Virus genome (UHGV): UHGV-0242546
Length of the DNA stretch: 10,762 nt
From: a virus
Reading direction: 5' to 3' (one strand)
This document shows, piece after piece, positions 1 through 9,565 of the stretch (positions are counted from its first letter, which is position 1; the number at the start of each line of letters is the position of its first letter). The position numbers were made by a program, and so were the translations under genes. Below the pieces are notes generated by a model. It saw only the letters and a list, made by a program, of their open reading frames with translations. It searched no databases and was not told the origin of the DNA.

Positions 1-364
1 TGGGTTCCACATGAGATTTCATAAAATCTTCAGCAGCAGAATCCGTGGGCTGGAAAAGAAGGCTGTTGCGTGATTTATGCTCAATAAAATAAGCCTCCAC
101 TCCCAGCAACATCTTTGTATAACCAACACGGGCAGATTTAATCAGATTAACAGTGCGGATCCGGTCATTCCCCATGCTGTTCATGATGGCAACCTGAAAC
201 GGCAGTGTTTCCCACCGCCCCGGGGTGTAAGATGACTCTTTCGGAAGGTAATAATGTCGATCTGCCCACTGAACTGTCGTCAGAGGGACAGGAATTTTTA
301 GCGCAAGGAGGCCGGTTGCTATCGCTCCTGCAGAATTAGCCGCCCTCAGTTCGTCTGAAATCAT
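1..364 (-). CDS. A: Terminase large subunit (gpA-like), N-terminal ~121 aa only; gene continues beyond the window start
   Basis: Minus-strand translation from ATG at 364-362 reads [97 protein letters not shown]..., which parallels the lambda gpA N-terminus as I recall it (WAD.NYYLPKES...[14 protein letters not shown]...KSARVGYSKMLLGV). The start overlaps the 3' end of the Nu1-like gene by 29 nt, as in lambda, with a GGTGG Shine-Dalgarno 4 nt upstream. Not in the ORF track because it is truncated by the window edge. Confidence 0.85.
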
Positions 365-884
365 CAATCCACCTGCGCACATTCTCACCGGCTTCAGAAG
401 CCACATCGGATGCTTTCGCGATTTCAGTTTTCACAGCATCAAGATGTACGGGTGATATATCAGGGTATTTACGCTGCAGTGTCTGAGGGACACGGACAAG
501 GATCCCTGATATATTCTGTGCCACTCGCTGAAAGATGTAGGTAAATAACTCCGTCTCGAGGACAAGGCCTTCCTCACGAGCATTTTTCAGCTCCTGTGCA
601 TCGGCCTGTGCCTTCGTCAGTCGGTAACGTTCGTAATCAATGGTGCCGGGCTGAAGGTCTGATTCGCTGGCAGCCCTCAAATCCTCGATCTCTTTACGGA
701 GTTTTTCGTTTTCAATATCAGCTTCCCTCTGCGCATACCACTGAATGGCAGCAGTTGTATCAAAAACTGATTCAGTCCCTTTCCCTCCACCAGAAACTAG
801 TGGTAACCCCTGACTCTGCCAGGCGGTGATGGTCCTGACATCAACGCCAAAAATATCGGCCAGTTTTTTCTTATTGACGTTCAT
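336..884 (-). CDS. nu1: Terminase small subunit (gpNu1-like), 182 aa, N-terminal winged-HTH cosB-binding domain
   Basis: ORF-track protein [42 protein letters not shown]...[47 protein letters not shown] closely parallels lambda Nu1 as recalled (MEVNKKQLADIFGASIRTIQNWQEQGMP...). It lies immediately downstream of a cos site and upstream of the gpA homolog. Confidence 0.9.
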
Positions 885-1053
885 ACACTCCCCCGGGAAC
901 CAGAAAGGATCTGAAAATGGCGTTTTCTAACAAAAACAGCCTTTGTCAGATCCTTTTATATTTTTAAAATTCTATTGATAATCAATCAGTTAAAAAGAAG
1001 AAGAACGGATCTGATTTTTCCCTAAAAATTTTCATAAATAGCGAAAACCCGCG
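885..1053 (-). promoter_or_regulatory. cosB-like region (terminase Nu1 binding sites and probable IHF site) between cosN and the Nu1 start
   Basis: Minus-strand sequence between the cohesive-end site and the Nu1 ATG (CGCGGGTTTTCGCTATTTATGAAAATTTTTAGG...CCGTTCTTCTTC...) is near-identical over its first ~35 nt to the lambda left end as I recall it and contains the CGTTCTTCTTC element and an AT-rich block. Individual R1-R3 and I1 sites were not delimited. Confidence 0.6.
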
Positions 1054-1065
1054 AGGTCGCCGCCC
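1054..1065 (-). other. cosN: 12-nt cohesive-end site (GGGCGGCGACCT on the minus strand), flanked by a cosQ-like sequence at about 1066-1100
   Basis: Plus strand 1054-1065 is AGGTCGCCGCCC, the reverse complement of the lambda cohesive end GGGCGGCGACCT. The flanking minus-strand sequence GGGTCCTTTCCGGTGATCCAGACCGTTACG|GGGCGGCGACCT|CGCGGGTTTTCGCTATTTATGAAAATTTT matches the lambda right-end/left-end junction as recalled. Confidence 0.85.
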
Positions 1066-1288
1066 CGTAACGGTCTGGATCACCGGAAAGGACCCGCCAA
1101 CGACTTTCGCGTGCAGGCATTAAAAATTTTGCAGTTCCATGCCTAGTTGAAACCTCGATTTCTATAACATCCAATTTTGTAAATTTAGATATAGCTCAAC
1201 TTTTCCCAATGTTTTCAAGTGTATAAAAACAATTGGCGTTACGCCATAACACTATACTTAGGATAAGTAAAGATTTTAAGGAGTTTTA

Positions 1289-2356
1289 ATGAGTCAACAT
1301 CAATATTATCCACAGCTGAAATGGAAGCCTGCTGAATATGAATCTCTGATGCTTTTAGATCAAACTACGCTCTCTGGTTTTACTCCGATCATTACCATTC
1401 CAGACATAGACTGGGATTATGAAAACGAATGCTACAAGAAGAGTTTGAGTTCTTACTTATCTGACTTCGGTATTAACCTTGCGGCATCCTGGAAAGCCAA
1501 TCGTCCTGTTTTGCTGGATGTTAAATATTTAGATAAACATGGTTCGAGCCGCCATCATCCTCTAGATATGTGTATCCAAGATGCTAGAGTAAATGGTAAG
1601 GAAATTATCCCTGTTGTTTCTCCCGCATATTCAACAAACTATATACATGCTGTTCAACGCAACTTAATCAATGGGCTCGCTATATCTATCACCCCCCAGA
1701 CATGGCACCAATTCACAAGTCTGGTTAACCACTTAAATATTCATCCTAGTTTAATTGATGTAATCATTGATTTTGGAGATATTCAAAACGCAACTGATAG
1801 TTTAAAACAACAAGCATTAAGCATGGTCAACACATTATCAGGCCAAGCTCCGTGGAGAAACTTGATTTTATCTTCAACCGCATACCCAGCATCACAGGCA
1901 GGGATACCGCAACATCAAGTTCATCATATTCCGCGCCATGAATACGATCTTTGGATGTACGTAGTACAGAATTTTAGCAATGGAAGAACGCCAAGTTTTA
2001 GTGATTATCCCACCGCTAGCTCTACCATTACGAGCGTAGACCCACGCTTCATGTCTCAGTATGTCTCAGTGAGATATTCGAACGATACCTCATGGATCTT
2101 TGTAAAAGGTACCGCAGTTAAAGGAAATGGATGGGGCCAAACTAAAAACTTATGTACTACCCTTGTTAGTTCGCCAGAGTATCAAGTCTTTGGTTCCAAA
2201 TTTAGTTGGGGGGATGATTACATTTACCAAAGATCATTAGGCGCTAACAAATCTGGCGGCTCTAAAGAATGGCGTAAAGTTGCACATACGCACCATATTA
2301 CGTTAGTCGTGAGACAGCTTTATTGGTTGGCGCAGACTCAGCCTGCCAAGCCTTAA
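1289..2356 (+). CDS. Hypothetical 355-aa protein, AT-rich cargo gene, no recognisable catalytic motif; possibly a sce7725/Beta-protein-like partner (unverified)
   Basis: Long ORF with a strong Shine-Dalgarno (TAAGGAG, 5-nt spacer) before ATG 1289. Codon usage and GC content are clearly lower than the flanking phage backbone. It lies between the lysis-operon terminator and cos, the classic lambdoid moron position (bor/lom slot). Family assignment cannot be made without a profile search. Confidence 0.8.
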   Translation: MSQHQYYPQLKWKPAEYESLMLLDQTTLSGFTPIITIPDIDWDYENECYKKSLSSYLSDFGINLAASWKANRPVLLDVKYLDKHGSSRHHPLDMCIQDARVNGKEIIPVVSPAYSTNYIHAVQRNLINGLAISITPQTWHQFTSLVNHLNIHPSLIDVIIDFGDIQNATDSLKQQALSMVNTLSGQAPWRNLILSSTAYPASQAGIPQHQVHHIPRHEYDLWMYVVQNFSNGRTPSFSDYPTASSTITSVDPRFMSQYVSVRYSNDTSWIFVKGTAVKGNGWGQTKNLCTTLVSSPEYQVFGSKFSWGDDYIYQRSLGANKSGGSKEWRKVAHTHHITLVVRQLYWLAQTQPAKP

Positions 2357-2918
2357 CTTTCCAGCCTACGCGTTTCTTTAAGGCTGTTCTGACTTCAAGC
2401 CTGAGATTCGCTATTGGAATATTTTCCGCAATAATATTCCATAACTCAAATCGGGGCTTGCTTTTGATTCCTTTGGAATAGCCCCATCGTTCAAGTACGT
2501 CGATACATTCATCTTTCCAAAGCAATTGAGCGAGCATCAATGTGTCATGGTTTCGATTAAGCTTTTCTCCACGCATGTGCTTTATAAGAATGGCGCCTTT
2601 TGGCCCAACAGAAACCGTTTTAACGCCCCACCAACCTGGGATTAACTTTAATGCTCCCTCAAGATGTTTCTCAGCTACGACAAGAGTAACCTTGTCCATT
2701 ACAGAAGAATAATGCTTGATTTGAAGAGGCAAACGCTCCAAAGAGTCATATTCACTTTTGAGCTCGTACCCGTGTATAACACCATTTATTACAGCAATGT
2801 CTGCTCTACTGGCGCCAAGGGATATGGAAAATTCATCGACCACAAGGCAGTCTGGATCTAAATGCGATTCTTTCAAAAGCTTATGATGCACCGCGAACCT
2901 AACATCTTGATCTTTCAT
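2298..2918 (-). CDS. Hypothetical 206-aa protein with a PD-(D/E)xK nuclease-like motif arrangement, AT-rich cargo gene
   Basis: Strong Shine-Dalgarno (AAGGAG, 5-nt spacer) upstream of ATG 2918. Residues ~28-54 read VVDEF...SRADIAVINGVIHGYELK, i.e. acidic residue, then D, then E-x-K with restriction-endonuclease-fold spacing. Convergent with, and overlapping by 59 nt, the 3' end of the 355-aa gene. Confidence 0.8.
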   Translation of the reverse strand: MKDQDVRFAVHHKLLKESHLDPDCLVVDEFSISLGASRADIAVINGVIHGYELKSEYDSLERLPLQIKHYSSVMDKVTLVVAEKHLEGALKLIPGWWGVKTVSVGPKGAILIKHMRGEKLNRNHDTLMLAQLLWKDECIDVLERWGYSKGIKSKPRFELWNIIAENIPIANLRLEVRTALKKRVGWKVKAWQAESAPTNKAVSRLT

Positions 2919-2980
2919 GACTTCTCCTTACTCCCTCCGTTATTGAATTATAGCGCACTGCATTTTACTGCATTTGAGAG
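2919..2980 (-). promoter_or_regulatory. Putative promoter of the 206-aa gene: perfect -10 TATAAT (plus 2947-2952) preceded by a tandem direct repeat AATGCAGT x2
   Basis: Minus strand reads ...CAAATGCAGTAAAATGCAGTGCGCTATAATTCAATAACGGAGGGAGTAAGGAGAAGTCATG. The TATAAT lies 28 nt upstream of the ATG. There is no good -35 hexamer; instead the -35 position is occupied by two tandem AATGCAGT copies, a possible regulator binding site. Confidence 0.35.
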
Positions 2981-3266
2981 ATTTGACCACTTCAATCACA
3001 AAATGCTTATCTGCAGCAACAAGATTCATAGCCATACGACTATGGTGATTACCTTTTGTCTGGAAAACTGACCATTCCACGAAGATCAGATAGGTCTATA
3101 GAATCTTGGTTTGTCATAGCGTTCGCCTTACTTTGAGATGAACCTTTGCTGCATAGGAGATCAGCCCGTCAAGGCTCACCAGCACTAACTGACTACTCAA
3201 AGGCTCATTCCAAAGGGTTTGGTTCGACGTGGTTGAGTGCACTGCGGTGCGCGGTGAAATACCTGT

Positions 3267-3300
3267 ACAAAAATGCCCCGCATCTGCGAGGCATTTTCCT
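3267..3300 (-). terminator. Rho-independent terminator downstream of Rz/Rz1 (end of the lysis cassette); hairpin is near-bidirectional
   Basis: Minus-strand RNA AAAAUGCCUCGCAGAUGCGGGGCAUUUUUGUAC forms a GC-rich stem followed by a U5 tract, about 35 nt after the Rz stop at 3335. Confidence 0.6.
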
Positions 3301-3334
3301 GAAAGTCACGTATTAAATTTCAGTGAAATTAAAA

Positions 3335-3772
3335 TTATTTTAAGCACTGCGTCCTGATGTACTCCTGCAGGTAGTTGACCTGCGCGGTTATCTTGTCGAT
3401 TCCACTTCGGAGACGGTAATAATTGAGTTCAGCATCTGCTGTAAGTCTTGGGCTTTCTCCATTGCCCATGCCGCTGGCTCCGGTCGTTGACTTTGCACAG
3501 GTAGCGGCGACTTGCAGGCGCTTACGCCCAGCAGAAACATCAGCACGGAGGCTTTCGATAGTCGCGTTAGCATCAGCAAGCTCCTTTGTATATCTGGCAT
3601 CGAGTTCTGCTACGTCACGTTGACGCTTCTGCATATCAGCGATTGTGGATGTGGCTTTATCGCGCTGCTCTTTGTAGGTTATGGCGTTATCACGGTAATG
3701 ATTCAGCCCCAGACTAAGCGCACCACAGGCCACCAGCAGGGCAATGATGACCACGCACAGTACGCGGTTCAT
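3335..3772 (-). CDS. Rz: Rz i-spanin (inner-membrane spanin subunit), 145 aa
   Basis: Protein starts MNRVLCVVIIALLVACGALSLGLNHYRDNAITYKEQRDKA (N-terminal TM anchor then coiled-coil periplasmic domain), the typical Rz architecture. It is the last gene of the lysis cassette and has an embedded +1-frame lipoprotein ORF. Confidence 0.85.
   Translation of the reverse strand: MNRVLCVVIIALLVACGALSLGLNHYRDNAITYKEQRDKATSTIADMQKRQRDVAELDARYTKELADANATIESLRADVSAGRKRLQVAATCAKSTTGASGMGNGESPRLTADAELNYYRLRSGIDKITAQVNYLQEYIRTQCLK
3388..3573 (-). CDS. Rz1: Rz1 o-spanin (outer-membrane lipoprotein), embedded out of frame within Rz; ~61 aa precursor
   Basis: The +1-frame ORF inside Rz encodes MLTRLSKASVLMFLLGVSACKSPLPVQSQRPEPAAW...: signal peptide with lipobox (V-S-A-C) followed by a proline-rich mature peptide, as in lambda Rz1. 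The ORF track gives the longer version (3388-3600); the start at the second Met is chosen on signal-peptide logic. Confidence 0.7.
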   Translation of the reverse strand: MLTRLSKASVLMFLLGVSACKSPLPVQSQRPEPAAWAMEKAQDLQQMLNSIITVSEVESTR

Positions 3773-3773
3773 T

Positions 3774-3911
3774 TCACCACCAGCGTATCTGACCGATGAA
3801 ATAACCGGAGGCCATAATCACAAACACCAGCCAGATAAGAATGAACTTCCAGGTGGATAATTTTTCAGCCATCACTCGAATCTCCCGAATCAGTTTGCTA
3901 AAATCAAACAC
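3774..3911 (-). CDS. Small putative single-pass membrane protein (45 aa from GTG 3911, or 32 aa from ATG 3872), translationally coupled to Rz
   Basis: AGGAG Shine-Dalgarno 6 nt upstream of GTG at 3911. Product MFDFSKLIREIRVMAEKLSTWKFILIWLVFVIMASGYFIGQIRWW has one clear hydrophobic helix. Its TGA stop lies 1 nt before the Rz ATG. The long N-terminal extension in the 89-aa track ORF is Lys-rich low-complexity and contains a hairpin, so it is probably non-coding. Confidence 0.4.
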   Translation of the reverse strand: MFDFSKLIREIRVMAEKLSTWKFILIWLVFVIMASGYFIGQIRWW

Positions 3912-3947
3912 ACTTTCTCCTTTGACTTTTCCGGAGTCAGGAAACAC

Positions 3948-3981
3948 AAAACCCCGCTTGCAGCCAACAAACGGGGTTTTT
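3948..3981. terminator. Terminator-like hairpin between endolysin R and the small membrane ORF; strand ambiguous (T-tract is better on the plus strand)
   Basis: AAAACCCCG-(15-nt loop)-CGGGGTTTTT. The 9-bp stem is flanked by an A-run on one side and a T-run on the other. On the minus strand (gene direction) the stem is followed by UUUUGUGUUUCC. Confidence 0.45.
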
Positions 3982-4070
3982 ACTTTTATTCTCTTAGTTT
4001 TTGTCAGTTCGCAGGATTTCGTGTTATCCGTCCGTGTGAGCAAACCGCATTTTTCAGCAAAATATTCTGC

Positions 4071-4604
4071 TTATCTGTCAATTCCCCAGCACGCCAGCGC
4101 ACTCTCCTGGTCGCGACGGGATACCTGACCGTAACAGTTGTTTGAGCGAATACGGCAGTCTCTGCCACCGACCTTAATCCACCAGCGAATCGCCTCACAC
4201 GCTCCCCTGCGATCACCTGCATTAATTCGTTTATAAAACGTCGACGGAAAACACTTACCGGGGCCAATGTTGTACGGACAGAATGACGCGATCCCCGCTT
4301 TCTGGGGTTCACTCAATGGCACTCTGATGTTTTTCTCCACCCATGCCAGCGCCTTATCACGCTCAATGGCGTTAACCCGGTCGCATTTTTCCTTCGACAA
4401 CTTCATGCCCGGAACGACAGGTTTGCCATCCACCAGGATGGCACCGCGGCAGATGGTCCAGATACCCGCGCCATCACGGTATGCCGTGGTGTGGTTACCT
4501 TCCTTTTCATCCAGAAACTGGTCGAGAATGTCAGGCGCAGGCGCACCAGCGGCAATCAGCGCCAGAACGGCAGCCGACAGGCCGTATTTGATTTTGGTGT
4601 TCAT
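4071..4604 (-). CDS. R: SAR endolysin (phage-21 R-type lysozyme, T4-lysozyme fold with N-terminal signal-anchor-release domain), 177 aa
   Basis: N-terminus MNTKIKYGLSAAVLALIAAGAPAP is a weakly hydrophobic, Gly/Ala-rich SAR-type segment. It is followed by EGNHTTAYRDGAGIWTICRGA, the E-x8-D-x5-T catalytic-triad spacing of T4-type lysozymes. It sits downstream of a pinholin-type S. Confidence 0.9.
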   Translation of the reverse strand: MNTKIKYGLSAAVLALIAAGAPAPDILDQFLDEKEGNHTTAYRDGAGIWTICRGAILVDGKPVVPGMKLSKEKCDRVNAIERDKALAWVEKNIRVPLSEPQKAGIASFCPYNIGPGKCFPSTFYKRINAGDRRGACEAIRWWIKVGGRDCRIRSNNCYGQVSRRDQESALACWGIDR

Positions 4605-5387: not shown

Positions 5388-7241
5388 TTATGATGATGCC
5401 GGTGCATTTATCTCCAGCACCAGACTTTCTATCTCAACGCCATACGTTGCATTTTTGGTAATATCCGTCAGCGTCAGTGCATTTAGTCCCACTGTCAGAC
5501 TGTCTTTTATGACCTGGAATGCCGGGCCAGCCACTCCATTCAGTTTCGGAGTAACCGTGGCACTGCCGGCGGTGAACACCAGCTCCAGCGTCTGCCAGTC
5601 GTTACTGTAATTCCCGAACTCGCCCAACTTTGTGTTTCCGGCTTTCTTGTGATGCATCAGATTCAGTTTGCCGTCTGTGGTCTGGGTGAAGAACGACATC
5701 AGGAACGGGTTACCAGTCCCGGTCATCGCCACGACGTCAGGTAACGCTACATCGGTATACAGATAAATTCCCAGACCGAACTGGTTGTTGGTCAGTGCGC
5801 CTGACAGTCGAAACTTACAGCTCAGTCTGCCACCCCGTGTCAGCAGGGAGACTGCGTCATCCACCGGGCGCGTCAGGGACCAGGCTTTATTGCTCTGCTT
5901 GGTGATCTTAAATACACCATCTGACAACTGAATTCCGCCATTCTTAATGCTCCAGCCCTGCGCAGCAGCATCTCCGGCTGTCGGCAACAGGGAGATTGTG
6001 CGTACGGATGCATCTTCAGACGGCCCCGATGGCGTGTCGCCGCCGGGCGAGGGTTTGATTTCCGGTGCCTTACCACTAATGAAGGCTAAGGTGCGACCGG
6101 CTACGTTCAGAATAGCAGTTGCCATACGATCGGGAATAATGCCACGACGCGCCCATGAGCTGAAATGCGTCGGGCGATTTGATGATACCCAGTTTTTGTT
6201 CGTTCGGGATGCCGAACCGTAATAACCAGACCCGGCAATATCAGGATCTTCTGACGGGTTGTTTGTCGGTGTATTAACTCCGCTACCATCGGTCATAAAG
6301 GGAACAAAATAAATCTGCTGGGATTCTTTACCTTTATATGCACCATATACCACTTCATATTGCGTACCGTGTTCTTGTTTCCACGCGTATGTCGTGTCGC
6401 CACAAATCCAGGGGACTGATGCCGGACTTCCACCGTGACACTGCGCTGCCAGCCCGGCAAGGTCAGCACGGAACTGCTGTACCATTGCAAGAAATGCTGC
6501 TGGCTGCTGGGCGTAACTGGCATTCGTCATATCGAATTCCCCCTGCATCCAGCATATCGCCAGCAAAACGTTTTTCGGGTTTTTCTGCAATGCTGCCTTC
6601 GTGCGGAAAAGCAGATCCTGATATAACGGCTTACCCACTCCCCAGCGAGCCGAATCCTGACTGGCTCCCGTGGACTCGCTGAATGTCCCCTCCGTGCCCT
6701 GGGTGAATGCCGAACCACCACGACAGCATGGTACCAGCAGGATCCCCGCATTATTAGGGATATACGGAAGCAGTTTTTTGGCAATATGTAAGCCCTGTCC
6801 GACACAGCCGTACTGCCCTTTGCTCAGGTCAGCCCGGGGATGGTTAATCGTACTCATATCCTGAACATCATGCAGACAATGGTCAGCAGGAATGATGTCG
6901 TTAAATACGCATACTTCACCACCGGGAGTCACTGTGTTACGACGGGCCAGTTGCTTAATGCGCGGATGGGGCGCATCGTATGAATCCGGAAGCGGAAGCC
7001 CTTCACCGTAAGCCATGGCATTGGATTGCCCGGCCAGTACGATGACGTAGTACCACTCCGGCTCAGTTGCACCACTGACGACCACATCACCTTCTGCTGC
7101 AATCGCCTGCATCAGGGTATAAGGGGTTATGGCCACCGGACTACCAAACGGCTGCCAGCCCTCCTTCAGTTTTTGTGTCAGTCGTTTCGCAAGGTCTGAC
7201 GGCGATGCCGCCCTGACCACGTCATAGTGTTTAAATGCCAT
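5388..7241 (-). CDS. nanS-p: NanS-p-like prophage sialate 9-O-acetylesterase (N-terminal DUF1737, SGNH/DUF303 esterase domain, C-terminal extension), 617 aa
   Basis: N-terminus [38 protein letters not shown] (DUF1737-like), then [20 protein letters not shown] carrying the GQSN catalytic-serine block of SGNH/SASA esterases. It sits between the tRNA/stx locus and S, the position of the nanS-p (yjhS-like) gene in Stx prophages. Confidence 0.85.
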
Positions 7242-7463: not shown

Positions 7464-7469
7464 GTCCAT

Positions 7470-7705
7470 AAGAAAGCCCCTCCGGAGAGGGGCTAAAGCC
7501 GCGTATCTGTATCATCATGCACATGGTGCCGGGTGCCTCCCGGTGAGTTCAGCCCGGTGCCACTAAACCCGCGTCATTCTCGTTTTGATAATCAGAGATT
7601 ATACCGTCACCAGTCGCCCCTCCGCTCAGGGGGATTCACCATGCGAAATTTTTTTAACAAATGCCCAGTCTGACAGGCAACTGTCAACTTACTGAATTGT
7701 GAGCA
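7470..7705. repeat. Direct repeat copy A of a ~230-bp structured non-coding element
   Basis: Shares conserved blocks with copy B, in the same order with divergent spacers: AGAAAGCCCCTCCGGAGAGGGGCT, CATGGTGCCGGGTGCCTCCCGGTGA(G/A)TTCAG, GCCCCTCCGC(T/A)CAGGGGGATTCACCATGC, TTTTAACAAA, CTGAATTGTGAG. Confidence 0.7.
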
Positions 7706-7739
7706 ACATAGCATTTAACGGGGAACCTGTTTTCTGCAG

Positions 7740-7767
7740 TAAAAAGGCCCACCGGAGCGGATGGGCC
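7740..7767 (-). terminator. Terminator-like hairpin (minus strand) between the two repeat copies
   Basis: Minus-strand RNA GGCCCAUCCG-CUC-CGGUGGGCC followed by UUUUUACUG. Confidence 0.4.
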
Positions 7768-7956
7768 TGGAAGGATAGCGGTCATGTGATGCCGGTTTCC
7801 CGGTAACTCAGCACCGGTATCTGAGTCAACGTTTTCTCTACTGGGTCATTTCCGATACGCCCTGCCTGCTGACAGGCTTTCATCACATCTGAAAATATAG
7901 CACCCTGACTGATACTGTAGTACCTAAGGTTCCAGAAACTGTGATGTATCCGGCAC

Positions 7957-8175
7957 AGAAAAGCCCCTCCGGAGAGGGGCTGGAGAGTGGCGCTATGTGC
8001 CATTGCATGGTGCCGGGTGCCTCCCGGTGAATTCAGTACCAGCACCTGAATCCGCGATTATCCCATATACCTACTCGCTGATTGCCCCTCCGCACAGGGG
8101 GATTCACCATGCCAGTTTCTTTTAACAAACTCCCCGCAAACCAGACAACAGTCAACCGCCTGAATTGTGAGACAT
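7957..8175. repeat. Direct repeat copy B of the ~230-bp structured non-coding element
   Basis: See copy A. Same conserved blocks in the same order, immediately downstream (in transcription sense) of tRNA argO and its terminator. Confidence 0.7.
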
Positions 8176-8216: not shown

Positions 8217-8293
8217 TGGCGCGTTGTACTGGATTCGAACCAGTGACCGATTGCTTAGAAGGCAATTGCTCTGTCCGGCTGAGCTAACAACGC
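8217..8293 (-). tRNA. argO: tRNA-Arg (anticodon UCU, reads AGA), phage argO-like
   Basis: Minus strand GCGTTGTTAGCTCAGCCGGACAGAGCAATTGCCTTCTAAGCAATCGGTCACTGGTTCGAATCCAGTACAACGCGCCA folds as a canonical cloverleaf: 7-bp acceptor stem, GCTC/GAGC D-stem, anticodon loop CTTCTAA, T-loop TTCGAAT, encoded CCA. Confidence 0.9.
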
Positions 8294-8306: not shown

Positions 8307-8383
8307 TGGACCGCCTTCGGGGACCCGAACTCCGCGCAACCAGCTTCGAAGGCTGGCGCTCTTTCCTGATGAGCTAATGGCGG
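8307..8383 (-). tRNA. argN: tRNA-Arg-like (anticodon UCG as read, would decode CGA), phage argN-like, with non-canonical features
   Basis: Minus strand CCGCCATTAGCTCATCAGGAAAGAGCGCCAGCCTTCGAAGCTGGTTGCGCGGAGTTCGGGTCCCCGAAGGCGGTCCA. Cloverleaf is recognisable (GCTC/GAGC D-stem, anticodon stem CCAGC/GCTGG, loop CTTCGAA, encoded CCA), but it has an A-A mismatch in the acceptor stem, one T-stem mismatch and G instead of the conserved A58. Confidence 0.7.
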
Positions 8384-8390
8384 TATGTGA

Positions 8391-8466
8391 TGGTGGCCCT
8401 TGCTGGATTTGAACCAGCGACCTGGCGATTATGAGTCGCTCGCTCTCACCACTGAGCTAAAGGGCC
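8391..8466 (-). tRNA. ileZ: tRNA-Ile2 (anticodon CAU, lysidine-type, reads AUA), phage ileZ-like
   Basis: Minus strand GGCCCTTTAGCTCAGTGGTGAGAGCGAGCGACTCATAATCGCCAGGTCGCTGGTTCAAATCCAGCAAGGGCCACCA is near-identical to E. coli tRNA-Ile2 (ileX) as I recall it; anticodon loop CTCATAA. Confidence 0.9.
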
Positions 8467-8515: not shown

Positions 8516-9565
8516 TCAAACGATTAAATCCTGAACTTCCCTGACTGTCTGCTCAAAACGTCCGGTCTCCAGTTCAACGCCAATCGCACGACGCCCGAGC
8601 GCCAGTGCCGCTTTTACCGTTGAACCTGAGCCCATAAAAAAATCTGCAACCAGGTCACCCGGACGACTGCTTGCGCTGATTATCTGCTGCAGCATTTCTG
8701 CCGGTTTTTCGCACGGATGTTTCCCGGGATAGAACTGCACCGGTTTATGTGTCCACACATCCGTGTACGGCACCTGCGCCGTCACACCAAAATACCGCCG
8801 CAGATGCTTATATTCACTCTGCAGCTCCACATACTGCCGGTTCAGTGACGTATACGTATCCACCAGCTGGTGGTGGGGCTTTTCCAGTTCACCGCGCTGA
8901 TGTTTCTCTTCTGCCACCCGGGCAAACAGCGACTGTAATTTCAGATAATCGCTTTCGTTCGGTAGCTGCCACTGACTGGCACTGAACCAGTGCGACACCA
9001 TGTTTTTCTTTCCTGTGGCATCTGCAATCTGTTTTGCCGTTATCCCCAGGGCCGCGCGCGCATCACGAAAGTAAGAAATCAGCGGGGCCATCACATGCTG
9101 TTTCAGTGCACTGCCCTTCGCCGCATACCTGGCATCTTTCGGACGATACGGCCCCTGATAATGTTCCGCGAACAGAATGCGCTCTGTGGCGGGGAAATAC
9201 GCCCGCAGGCTTTCCTTGTTGCATCCGTTCCAGCGTCCGGACGGCTTCGCCCAGATAATATGGTTCAGCACACTGAAGCGTTCACGCATCATGATTTCGA
9301 TATCAGATGCCAGGCGATGACCACAGAACAGGTAAAGACTTCCGGCAGGTTTCAGCACCCGCCAGAACTGCGCCAGACACTGGTCCAGCCACTTCAGGTA
9401 ATCATCGTCGCCCTTCCACTGGTTATCCCAGCCCTCAGGCTTCACTTTAAAGTACGGCGGGTCCGTGACTATCAGGTCAACAGAATTTTCGGGTAACGAC
9501 CGGATAAATTCCAGGCAGTCGGCGTTGATTAACTCACAACTGGATATTTTTACAGTATTAAGCAT
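8516..9565 (-). CDS. Orphan DNA amino-methyltransferase (N6-adenine or N4-cytosine), beta-class motif order, 349 aa
   Basis: Motif IV DPPY at residues 35-38 (LIVTDPPYF) near the N-terminus and AdoMet-binding motif I FxGxG (DFFMGSGST) near the C-terminus, i.e. IV-then-I order. No restriction endonuclease partner is visible in the window. Confidence 0.9.
   Translation of the reverse strand: MLNTVKISSCELINADCLEFIRSLPENSVDLIVTDPPYFKVKPEGWDNQWKGDDDYLKWLDQCLAQFWRVLKPAGSLYLFCGHRLASDIEIMMRERFSVLNHIIWAKPSGRWNGCNKESLRAYFPATERILFAEHYQGPYRPKDARYAAKGSALKQHVMAPLISYFRDARAALGITAKQIADATGKKNMVSHWFSASQWQLPNESDYLKLQSLFARVAEEKHQRGELEKPHHQLVDTYTSLNRQYVELQSEYKHLRRYFGVTAQVPYTDVWTHKPVQFYPGKHPCEKPAEMLQQIISASSRPGDLVADFFMGSGSTVKAALALGRRAIGVELETGRFEQTVREVQDLIV

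What the first reader, a model, noticed from the sequence alone, without database searches (positions are those of the whole stretch)
1100..3334. AT-rich two-gene cargo cassette in the Rz-cos moron slot: candidate undescribed defence or abortive-infection module
Between the lysis-operon terminator (3267-3300) and cos (1054-1065), where lambda carries bor, sits a ~2.2-kb block of clearly lower GC content than the phage backbone. It encodes a 355-aa protein (1289-2356, +) and a 206-aa protein (2298-2918, -), each with a near-consensus Shine-Dalgarno. The 206-aa protein shows a PD-(D/E)xK-like residue pattern (E29...D40...E52-x-K54), suggesting a nuclease. The 355-aa partner has no motif I can assign. 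A roughly 350-aa protein paired with a roughly 200-aa PD-(D/E)xK-like protein is reminiscent of the sce7725/sce7726-type (P4 Beta/Gop-like) pairs seen in phage defence hotspots, but that is from memory and unverified. Prophage morons at this position commonly carry superinfection-exclusion or defence functions.
Basis: partly seen in the sequence, partly recalled or inferred. Interest (0 to 1): 0.85.

Follow-up and report, generated by a model that had tools for sequence, protein, structure and literature searches.

The report
Gop-less Beta/cII-type prophage defence pair
The AT-rich block between the lysis genes and cos of this lambda-like prophage carries two real genes, relatives of satellite phage P4's beta and cII. 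Both families are already named and belong to two proven anti-phage systems, but this two-gene form lacks the known toxin partner and has not itself been tested.

Summary

The 355-aa protein is a full-length Pfam Beta_protein (8e-56) and is predicted to be a TIM barrel. The 206-aa protein is an NCBIfam sce7726-family member (2e-54) and matches PADLOC 'cll', the model for P4 cII. It has a confident PD-(D/E)xK fold, and E29, D40, E52 and K54 are invariant among homologues.

The cassette is therefore a gop-less version of P4 gop-beta-cII. Beta is also component C of PD-lambda-2. RefSeq already names both genes, and the cassette is near-identical in 126 of 5,426 complete E. coli genomes.

Three things were not apparent before:
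- Beta and sce7726 are almost always paired across many phyla, 77 of 77 loci in one direction and 74 of 77 in the other.
- The two genes are always convergent, and their 3' ends nearly always overlap.
- Gop and the HigB/Xre-peptidase genes are lineage-specific additions to this pair.

In E. coli the gop-less pairs (126 + 93 genomes) outnumber gop-beta-cII (39).

My best reading, at confidence 0.55, is an anti-phage module in which Beta senses infection and the nuclease is the effector. A simple toxin-antitoxin reading is weakened by a natural IS1 disruption of Beta and by published suppressor data.

Verdict: a new variant of a known kind, of moderate interest.

The parts
1054..1065 (.). cosN, the cohesive-end site of the lambda-like prophage. 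It marks the left limit of the moron slot.
   Evidence: AGGTCGCCGCCC is the reverse complement of lambda's GGGCGGCGACCT, read directly. The small terminase subunit lies at 336-884 (-).
1190..1288 (+). Conserved AT-rich region upstream of Beta. It holds a -10-like TATAAA at 1222-1227 and the Shine-Dalgarno AAGGAG at 1278-1283. The promoter itself is not established.
   Evidence: Alignment with relatives of 74-78% identity from Edwardsiella, Klebsiella, Pantoea, Pectobacterium and IMG/VR contigs. Sequence read.
1289..2356 (+). Beta-family gene (355 aa), predicted to be a (beta/alpha)8 TIM barrel. Proposed sensor or regulatory partner.
2298..2356 (.). 59-bp overlap of the two convergent reading frames. 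It contains no terminator-like hairpin.
   Evidence: for the coordinates. Folding gives z -0.78 on the + strand and +0.27 on the - strand. Overlap is the rule in relatives: 78 of 81 pairs, median 56 bp, and 73 of 74 pairs in metagenome loci.
2298..2918 (-). sce7726-family (P4 cII-type) gene of 206 aa. It has a PD-(D/E)xK nuclease core (residues 1-120), a helical C-terminal domain and a disordered tail (188-206). Proposed effector.
2919..3020 (-). Conserved promoter and possible operator region of the sce7726 gene. It contains the Shine-Dalgarno site (2924-2929), a -10 TATAAT (2947-2952), a tandem 10-bp repeat AAATGCAGTA/AAATGCAGTG (2956-2975), and an alternative promoter TGGTCA-16-TAAAAT (2989-2962).
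   Evidence: Homology with the 74-76% identical relatives ends at about 3003-3024.
3114..3186 (-). Remnant of a P22-type rha gene (first 24 codons). It marks the right junction of the cassette with the phage backbone.
   Evidence: Window 3114-3400 matches the P22 rha/Rz junction at 88% identity. In P22, rha starts 149 bp downstream of Rz.
3267..3300 (-). Intrinsic terminator after the lysis genes (context only).
   Evidence: dG -22.6 kcal/mol, z -5.06, followed by a U-run.

Best explanation
The block is a self-contained mobile unit of about 1.8 kb (roughly 1160-3020). It consists of two convergently transcribed genes, each with its own conserved upstream region. One encodes a Beta-family TIM-barrel protein and the other an sce7726/P4-cII-family PD-(D/E)xK nuclease. 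It is the gop-less two-gene core of the family that includes P4 gop-beta-cII and, through Beta, PD-lambda-2. It sits as a moron between the lysis genes and cos or terminase.

**Most likely function (inferred).** A prophage-encoded anti-phage module of the abortive-infection or exclusion type. Beta would detect an incoming phage product and license its partner. The nuclease, with an intact active site and a SAP-like DNA-binding tail, would then cut DNA.

**Possible expression coupling (inferred).** The tail-to-tail overlap with no terminator probably makes each transcript read into the other gene. That would couple their expression and keep the pair inseparable.

**What is shown:** gene identity, predicted folds, conserved catalytic residues, near-obligate pairing and architecture, mobility, and the slot it occupies.

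**What is inferred:** the defence function, the sensor and effector roles, and antisense coupling.
For: **Family and fold.**

**Same anatomy as P4.** P4 beta (355 aa) and cII (RefSeq: sce7726 family) are convergent and lie next to cos. P4 cII scores 151 bits on NF033832.

**Relatives that protect against phage.**
- gop-beta-cII protects against lambda and P1 (PMC9122126).
- A phage gene, orf184, triggers cell death through it (bioRxiv 10.1101/2023.04.06.535777).
- PD-lambda-2 needs its Beta-like component C for defence, but not for neutralising the toxin (PMC9519451).

**Beta acts positively.**
- Tn5 suppressors of orf184-triggered death map to beta and gop.
- A natural IS1 insertion removes the first 52 codons of Beta and leaves the nuclease intact in viable E. 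coli.

**Pairing.**
- 77 of 77 evaluable sce7726 loci carry a convergent Beta gene.
- 74 of 77 Beta-seeded metagenome loci carry a convergent sce7726 gene.
- All 40 viral contigs carry the pair.
- Gordonia phage Powerball gp33/gp32 have the same layout.

**Mobility.** The unit sits in the lysis-terminase slot of three unrelated packaging types and in the nin region of Rac-SA53.

**Neighbourhood.** Neighbours elsewhere are mobile-element and defence genes.

**Evolutionary rate.** Beta evolves faster than the nuclease in 99% of 2,145 locus pairs. This fits a sensor paired with a conserved effector.
Against: - The two-gene form has never been tested, as far as the searched literature shows.
- It lacks the components shown to be toxic in the characterised relatives: Gop in P4 and the Xre-peptidase in PD-lambda-2.
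- In the P4-type system, cII was not among the suppressors of trigger-induced death. The nuclease may therefore not be the killing effector there.
- Beta also works in three-gene PD-lambda-2-like loci that have no sce7726 gene (L213).
- Ghisotti et al. 1990, as cited in PMC9122126, describe beta as neutralising Gop, which is a negative role.
- The P4 gene name cII comes from a lysogeny phenotype (from my own knowledge; the paper is not held).
- Beta's ligand or reaction is unknown, and it has no specific structural neighbour.
- Promoters and antisense coupling are consensus-level inferences. The promoter scan found no more sites than shuffled sequence gives.
Confidence: 0.55

Rival explanations
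1. A classical toxin-antitoxin or addiction pair that stabilises the prophage. The nuclease would be the toxin and Beta its antitoxin, with no dedicated anti-phage role.
For: Beta is described as neutralising a toxin (Gop) in P4. The nuclease has an intact active site and would need restraint. The two genes are strictly linked.
Against: IS1 truncates Beta while the nuclease stays intact in viable strains 1532MA and 1532WA. Beta is frameshifted or truncated with sce7726 intact in L122, L049 and L064. Tn5 insertions in beta were recovered as survivors in ECOR59. Convergent genes with separate promoters are atypical for type II toxin-antitoxin operons.
Confidence: 0.12
2. A phage or mobile-element life-cycle function rather than immunity, for example control of lysogeny (as the P4 name cII suggests) or DNA processing near cos.
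For: The P4 gene was named for a lysogeny phenotype (my knowledge; Ghisotti 1990 is not held). The pair lies next to cos in both P4 and this prophage. cII was not a suppressor of trigger-induced death.
Against: The same pair sits next to headful-type and HK97-type terminases and in the nin region of Rac-SA53. It sits beside the integrase and HicAB in a Gordonia phage. It also occurs in chromosomal loci of CPR bacteria, Firmicutes and Myxococcota with defence-gene neighbours. The cassette replaces a dispensable rha gene.
Confidence: 0.12
3. A modification-restriction-like pair. Beta, a TIM-barrel enzyme, would modify or mark self DNA, and the PD-(D/E)xK nuclease would cut unmarked DNA.
Confidence: 0.08
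4. The roles are reversed. Beta is itself the catalytic effector, for example a metal-dependent phosphodiesterase, and the sce7726 protein is a DNA-binding sensor or regulator.
Against: The nuclease's catalytic residues are invariant, which argues for catalysis rather than only binding. Beta evolves faster than the nuclease. No specific enzyme family matches Beta.
Confidence: 0.1

Closest known systems
P4 gop-beta-cII (PADLOC gop_beta_cll, DefenseFinder Gop_beta_cll), satellite phage P4 NC_001609
   Same: Both have a Beta protein of exactly 355 aa and an sce7726-family cII. In both, the two genes are convergent, lie next to cos, and occupy a cargo hotspot of a mobile element.
   Different: The window has no gop gene. 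The proteins are only distantly related to P4's: Beta 22% identity (E 3e-7) and the nuclease 27% (E 1e-18). The window's nuclease is 206 aa against 264 aa in P4. The window genes overlap by 59 bp with no terminator, whereas P4 has a 27-bp gap holding a clear terminator hairpin. P4 is a satellite, and this is a lambda-like prophage.
PD-lambda-2 (Vassallo et al. 2022, E. coli ECOR42)
   Same: Its component C is a Beta-family protein. The window's Beta scores higher on the PD-Lambda-2_C models (4.4e-32) than on the P4 beta model (3.5e-10).
   Different: The window has no HigB-like A and no Xre/ImmA-peptidase B. PD-lambda-2 as published has no nuclease gene. In nature both forms exist: a four-gene form with a convergent sce7726 gene (13 of 77 genome loci) and a three-gene form without it (L213).
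The beta / 'CII phage-like' pair of Escherichia phage Rac-SA53 (KU052037)
   Same: It is a two-gene, gop-less, convergent and overlapping (41 bp) pair in an E. coli lambdoid prophage. The nuclease is 54% identical to the window's. It is present in 93 complete E. coli genomes.
   Different: Beta is only about 30% identical. The pair sits in the nin region beside hok/mok, not in the Rz-cos slot.
MmcB-like / SPO1766 (PDB 3dnx) and other PD-(D/E)xK nucleases (Can2, NucS, type II restriction enzymes)
   Different: There is no similarity detectable at sequence level to any solved structure. The extra C-terminal helical (SAP-like) domain and the obligate Beta partner are particular to the sce7726 family.

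Membership tests
Pfam PF14350 Beta_protein (P4 beta family) | Profile score above the curated gathering threshold, over the full length | tested here: met
   190.4 bits against a cut-off of 27; residues 6-342 cover profile positions 1-342 of 342.
Pfam PF14350 Beta_protein (P4 beta family) | Family-wide invariant residues are present | tested here: met
   Y6, E16, P33, D77, P108, D161, D239, G323 and H336 are invariant across 26 sequences of 20-32% identity, including P4 beta and PD-lambda-2-type proteins.
NCBIfam NF033832 sce7726 family (includes P4 cII) | Profile score above the curated cut-off | tested here: met
   184.1 bits against a cut-off of 70. P4 cII itself scores 151.4 bits.
NCBIfam NF033832 sce7726 family (includes P4 cII) | Adjacent, convergent Beta-family partner gene | tested here: met
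   Seen in the window, in 77 of 77 evaluable genome loci and in 74 of 77 Beta-seeded metagenome loci.
PD-(D/E)xK nuclease superfamily | Alpha-beta-beta-beta-alpha-beta core fold | tested here: met
PD-(D/E)xK nuclease superfamily | Catalytic D...(D/E)xK residues are conserved | tested here: met
   D40 lies on strand 2 and E52-x-K54 on strand 3, with E29 as well. All are invariant in 48 homologues.
PD-(D/E)xK nuclease superfamily | Metal-dependent nuclease activity | not testable with these tools
   This needs purified protein.
Gop-beta-cII defence system (three genes) | A gop gene upstream of beta, in the same direction | tested here: not met
   Only 223 bp separate cos from the Beta start codon, and no ORF of 60 aa or more lies there. 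tblastn with P4 Gop at E<=10 finds nothing in the window.
Gop-beta-cII defence system (three genes) | Beta and cII homologues are present and convergent | tested here: met
   PADLOC beta 3.5e-10 and cll 4.3e-31. The orientation matches P4.
Gop-beta-cII defence system (three genes) | Protects against phage, and is triggered by a phage gene | not testable with these tools
   Shown only for the P4-type three-gene locus.
PD-lambda-2 defence system | HigB-like A and Xre/ImmA-peptidase B upstream of the Beta-like C | tested here: not met
   Neither gene is in the window. They are present in 13 other loci, where PD-Lambda-2_B scores 7e-140.
   No NCBIfam model matched the window's Beta at E<=1, apart from a chance ndhI hit. 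None matched six other Beta proteins at E<=0.01, including one from Sorangium. Whether sce7725 is a Beta protein could not be established.
Type II toxin-antitoxin pair | The toxin is lethal without its antitoxin, and the two genes form one operon | tested here: not met
   The genes are convergent with separate upstream regions. A natural variant has Beta disrupted and the nuclease intact. Toxicity itself was not tested.

The most novel reading that the evidence does not exclude
The Beta/sce7726 pair is an autonomous two-gene immune module found across many bacterial phyla, and the real core of both gop-beta-cII and part of the PD-lambda-2 family. Beta, a TIM-barrel protein with an invariant acidic pocket, would sense a phage product or a small molecule and switch on interchangeable effectors: the nuclease, Gop, or the Xre-peptidase. 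The conserved tail-to-tail overlap without a terminator would be a functional antisense or transcriptional-interference switch that sets the ratio of the two proteins. Detection rules that require gop would then miss most members of the family. I recall that the current rules do require it, but I did not test this.
Probability: 0.3. Interest if true: 0.7.

Novelty: new variant of a known kind. Interest (0 to 1): 0.45.

Why it matters
Gop-beta-cII and PD-lambda-2 are validated anti-phage systems, but how either works is unknown. This cassette shows that their shared Beta component normally travels with a PD-(D/E)xK nuclease as a compact two-gene unit.

That unit is far more widespread than either named system. 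Beta alone forms 3,757 clusters at 50% identity. In 5,426 complete E. coli genomes the gop-less pairs occur in 126 + 93 genomes, against 39 for gop-beta-cII.

A minimal two-gene version is the simplest place to ask three questions: what Beta senses, whether the nuclease is the effector, and whether the conserved convergent overlap is regulatory. It also suggests that three-gene detection rules under-count this family in prophages.

Tried and rejected
- **Hidden third gene.** I looked for one and found none. No ORF of 60 aa or more lies next to either gene, and tblastn with P4 Gop finds nothing.
- **Small ORF 2940-3080 (-).** It lies in DNA conserved among relatives, but the indels there are not multiples of three and the conservation is not codon-periodic. 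I read this stretch as promoter or operator, not coding.
- **Known RNA families.** Rfam finds none in 900-3400.
- **Terminator in the overlap.** There is no hairpin above background in the window or in Rac-SA53, whereas P4 has a clear one.
- **Promoter scan.** It gives no more sites than shuffled sequence, so the promoter calls rest on conservation alone.
- **sce7725 as Beta.** No Beta protein has any NCBIfam hit.
- **Does the cloned PD-lambda-2 fragment include a nuclease gene?** The clone ends 396 bp past the Beta stop codon, so any sce7726 gene there would be truncated. I could not obtain the ECOR42 sequence. A profile search with the Xre-peptidase listed no E. coli entry among its 120 shown hits. 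Plasmid hits turned out to be HigB/ImmA pairs without Beta.
- **Tools and papers that were unavailable.** A metagenome scan with the broad Beta alignment failed because no stretch was conserved enough; a narrower alignment worked. The afdb50 fold library was not available. Ghisotti 1990 is not held.
- **Uninformative searches.** Two literature searches returned mostly irrelevant papers.
- **Solved structures.** Neither family has one detectable by sequence.
Full report
**1. The observation**

The window holds ORFs at 1289-2356 (+, 355 aa) and 2298-2918 (-, 206 aa). They are convergent and their 3' ends overlap by 59 bp. Each has AAGGAG five nucleotides before its ATG.

cosN at 1054-1065 is the reverse complement of lambda's GGGCGGCGACCT. 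A strong hairpin followed by a U-run sits at 3267-3300 on the - strand (dG -22.6, z -5.1).

GC content is 0.40 over 1160-3020 and 0.52 over the rest of the late region.

The annotated twin of this window in E. coli BR1220 shows the context. Reading along the - strand, the order is antiterminator, DNA methyltransferase, three tRNAs, a SASA-family esterase, holin, lysozyme and Rz. The cassette follows, then cos, the small and large terminase subunits, and the head genes.

**2. What the two genes are**

The 355-aa protein is a full-length member of Pfam Beta_protein, PF14350 (8.2e-56). It also matches PADLOC PD-Lambda-2_C (4.4e-32) and, more weakly, P4 beta (3.5e-10).

The 206-aa protein is a member of NCBIfam sce7726 (184 bits, cut-off 70) and of PADLOC 'cll', the model for P4 cII (4.3e-31).

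P4 itself has the same layout. It carries gop (133 aa) and beta (355 aa) on one strand and cII on the other, convergent, all next to cos. RefSeq calls P4 cII an sce7726-family protein.

The window's proteins are distant from P4's, at 22% and 27% identity. They are closer to an annotated 'beta / CII phage-like' pair in Escherichia phage Rac-SA53, where the nuclease is 54% identical and Beta about 30%.

**3. Predicted structures**

E29, D40, E52 and K54 are invariant in 48 homologues.

Across 26 Beta proteins of only 20-32% identity, E16, D77, D161, D239 and H336 stay invariant. Most of them lie at strand ends, where TIM-barrel active sites sit (inference).

Neither family has a solved relative detectable by sequence.

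**4. The pair is a conserved unit with an unusual architecture**

I tested the pairing in both directions.

- Starting from sce7726, a scan of one genome per species found relatives in 389 species. In the 80 loci kept, all 77 that are not cut by a contig end carry a Beta gene immediately downstream on the opposite strand.
- Starting from a Beta N-terminal motif, 74 of 77 evaluable metagenome loci carry a convergent sce7726 gene.
- All 40 viral-contig loci are paired.

The reading frames overlap in 78 of 81 pairs from the first test (median 56 bp) and in 73 of 74 pairs from the second.

The hosts include Proteobacteria, Firmicutes, Myxococcota, Acidobacteriota, Bacteroidota, Elusimicrobiota and CPR bacteria. 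Gordonia phage Powerball has the same layout: gp33 is Beta, gp32 is annotated 'exonuclease' and matches sce7726 at 1e-71, and the two overlap by 89 bp.

The overlap partly reflects non-conserved tails. In the window, the nuclease's conserved core ends at W186 (nucleotide 2361). Its last 19 residues are predicted to be disordered.

The robust conserved feature is therefore that the two genes abut with no room for a terminator. Folding finds no terminator-like hairpin in the window or Rac-SA53 overlaps. P4, with a 27-bp gap, has a clear one.

**5. Additional genes are lineage-specific**

- Gop occurs only in P4 among about 250 loci.
- Thirteen of 77 genome loci have an Xre-HTH/ImmA-peptidase immediately upstream of Beta, matching PD-Lambda-2_B at 7e-140. 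This is PD-lambda-2 plus a convergent nuclease.
- A three-gene PD-lambda-2-type locus without any sce7726 gene also exists (L213).
- HigB/ImmA pairs occur without Beta at all.
- The enterobacterial relatives, including this window, have no third gene.

Beta therefore looks like a module that combines with different partners, and the nuclease is by far the commonest.

**6. Mobility and prevalence**

The cassette is at least 99% identical in 126 of 5,426 complete E. coli genomes. There it is annotated 'beta family protein | sce7726 family protein'. No deposited phage genome carries it at the nucleotide level.

E. coli prophage mosaics share window 1018/1020-3709 at 99% identity, while their flanks differ.

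Relatives of 74-78% identity in Edwardsiella, Klebsiella, Pantoea, Pectobacterium and IMG/VR contigs share only about 1165/1195 to 3003/3024. That is the two genes plus roughly 100 bp upstream of each.

In those relatives the unit again lies between the lysis genes and terminase, although the lysis and packaging modules are unrelated to lambda's. One has a LydA holin, a GH108 endolysin and Terminase_4/TerL. Another has an M15 endolysin and Terminase_2/Terminase_6.

In this window the cassette truncated a P22-type rha gene.

The Rac-SA53-type pair is in 93 complete E. coli genomes and P4 gop-beta-cII is in 39. Beta as a family has 3,757 clusters at 50% identity, and the top 150 are all single-domain proteins of about 355-370 aa.

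**7. How it most likely works**

The published evidence on relatives is as follows.

- gop-beta-cII protects against lambda and P1, and was proposed to act by abortive infection (PMC9122126).
- A phage accessory gene, orf184, triggers cell death through it.
- The Tn5 suppressors of that death lie in beta and gop, not in cII (Supplementary File 5).
- In PD-lambda-2 the Beta-like component is needed for defence but not for neutralising the toxin (PMC9519451).

Three of my own observations bear on the roles.

- IS1 removes the first 52 codons of Beta and leaves the nuclease intact in two related E. coli isolates.
- Beta evolves faster than the nuclease in 99% of 2,145 locus pairs, with mean identity 0.30 against 0.44.
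- Immediate neighbours of the pair in other genomes are mobile-element genes and assorted defence genes.

Together these favour Beta as a positively acting sensor or licensing factor. In this gop-less form the PD-(D/E)xK nuclease is the only candidate effector. I put this at 0.55.

The main weakness is that cII was not required for trigger-induced death in the P4-type system. The nuclease's role is therefore the least secure step.

The overlap without a terminator suggests that the two transcripts interfere with or pair with each other. This is inference only.

A conserved tandem repeat, AAATGCAGTA/AAATGCAGTG (2956-2975), overlaps the nuclease gene's promoter and could be an operator.

**8. 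Rivals**

- A plain toxin-antitoxin pair is weakened by the IS1 variant, by other loci with Beta decayed and the nuclease intact, and by beta insertions recovered as survivors.
- A life-cycle role, as the name cII suggests, is weakened by the many non-cos and non-phage contexts.
- A restriction-modification-like reading has only generic structural support and is also contradicted by the IS1 variant.
- Reversed roles, with Beta as the enzyme effector, cannot be excluded.

**9. Comparison with what is known, and novelty**

Both proteins pass their family tests. As a system, the cassette fails the defining three-gene composition of Gop-beta-cII (no gop) and of PD-lambda-2 (no A or B). I therefore file it as a new variant of a known kind, not as a member of either system.

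It is not 'undescribed', because RefSeq names both genes. I found no paper on the two-gene form or on the conserved convergent overlap. That search covers open-access text only.

Interest is moderate (0.45). The cassette itself is a common prophage moron from named families. However, it exposes a minimal and widespread core of two defence systems whose mechanism is unknown.

Noticed in passing
window 3114-3186 (-): The first 24 codons of a P22-type rha gene, 149 bp downstream of Rz, are cut off at the cassette junction. Window 3114-3400 is 88% identical to the P22 rha/Rz junction.
   Followed up: yes
window 2956-2975 (- strand reads AAATGCAGTAAAATGCAGTG): A tandem 10-bp repeat overlaps the promoter of the sce7726 gene. 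It lies just upstream of a conserved TATAAT (2947-2952) and is conserved in relatives of 74-85% identity. It may be an operator.
   Followed up: partly
L207 (E. coli 1532MA, NZ_CM129638.1) 1859-3568; the same in strain 1532WA: An IS1 insertion removes the first 52 codons of Beta, while the sce7726 gene is intact and identical. This is a natural 'nuclease without Beta' genotype in a viable strain.
   Followed up: partly
L039, L047, L055, L059, L062, L063, L065, L072, L074, L076, L078, L079, L080; contrast L213 (1158-3783): PD-lambda-2-type loci (Xre/ImmA-peptidase then Beta) often carry a fourth, convergent sce7726 gene that is not part of the published three-gene system. L213 has the three-gene form (HigB-like, Xre/ImmA-peptidase, Beta) with no nuclease. 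Whether the ECOR42 source locus has the nuclease could not be checked; the published clone ends 396 bp past the Beta stop codon.
   Followed up: partly
L250 (Gordonia phage Powerball MN234218) 2432-4244: gp33 (Beta family, 9e-59) and gp32 (annotated 'exonuclease'; sce7726 family, 1e-71) are convergent with an 89-bp overlap. They lie beside the integrase and a HicAB pair. This is the same architecture in an actinobacteriophage.
   Followed up: yes
window 7464-7673, 7951-8141 and weakly 7739-7912 (-): Two strong copies and one weak copy of the Rfam sRNA STnc100 (165, 136 and 30 bits) lie between the esterase gene and the tRNA cluster.
   Followed up: no
window 8217-8293, 8307-8383, 8391-8466 (-): A phage tRNA cluster: Arg(tct), Arg(tcg) and a CAT-anticodon tRNA. 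ARAGORN calls the third one Met, and RefSeq annotates it as Ile in the identical prophage.
   Followed up: no
window 1018-1020 and about 3709: These are recurrent mosaic breakpoints. Many E. coli prophages share 1018/1020-3709 at 99% identity while the terminase side and the lysis genes beyond 3709 differ (83-88% identity, or unrelated). The cassette seems to travel together with cos and the 3' part of Rz.
   Followed up: partly
all sce7726 homologues: The protein collection's precomputed annotation lists Pfam PF26915 for every homologue, but the local Pfam copy returns no hit for the 206-aa protein. A newer Pfam family probably exists whose name I could not read.
   Followed up: no
window 1234-1246: A short GC-rich hairpin (TGGCGTAACGCCA) lies between the -10-like box and the Shine-Dalgarno site of Beta. 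It is present in the window but not in the 74-78% identical relatives.
   Followed up: no
window 5388-7241 (-) and 8516-9565 (-): Other cargo in the late region: a 617-aa SASA-family carbohydrate esterase and a 349-aa DNA methyltransferase, both as annotated in the identical BR1220 prophage.
   Followed up: no
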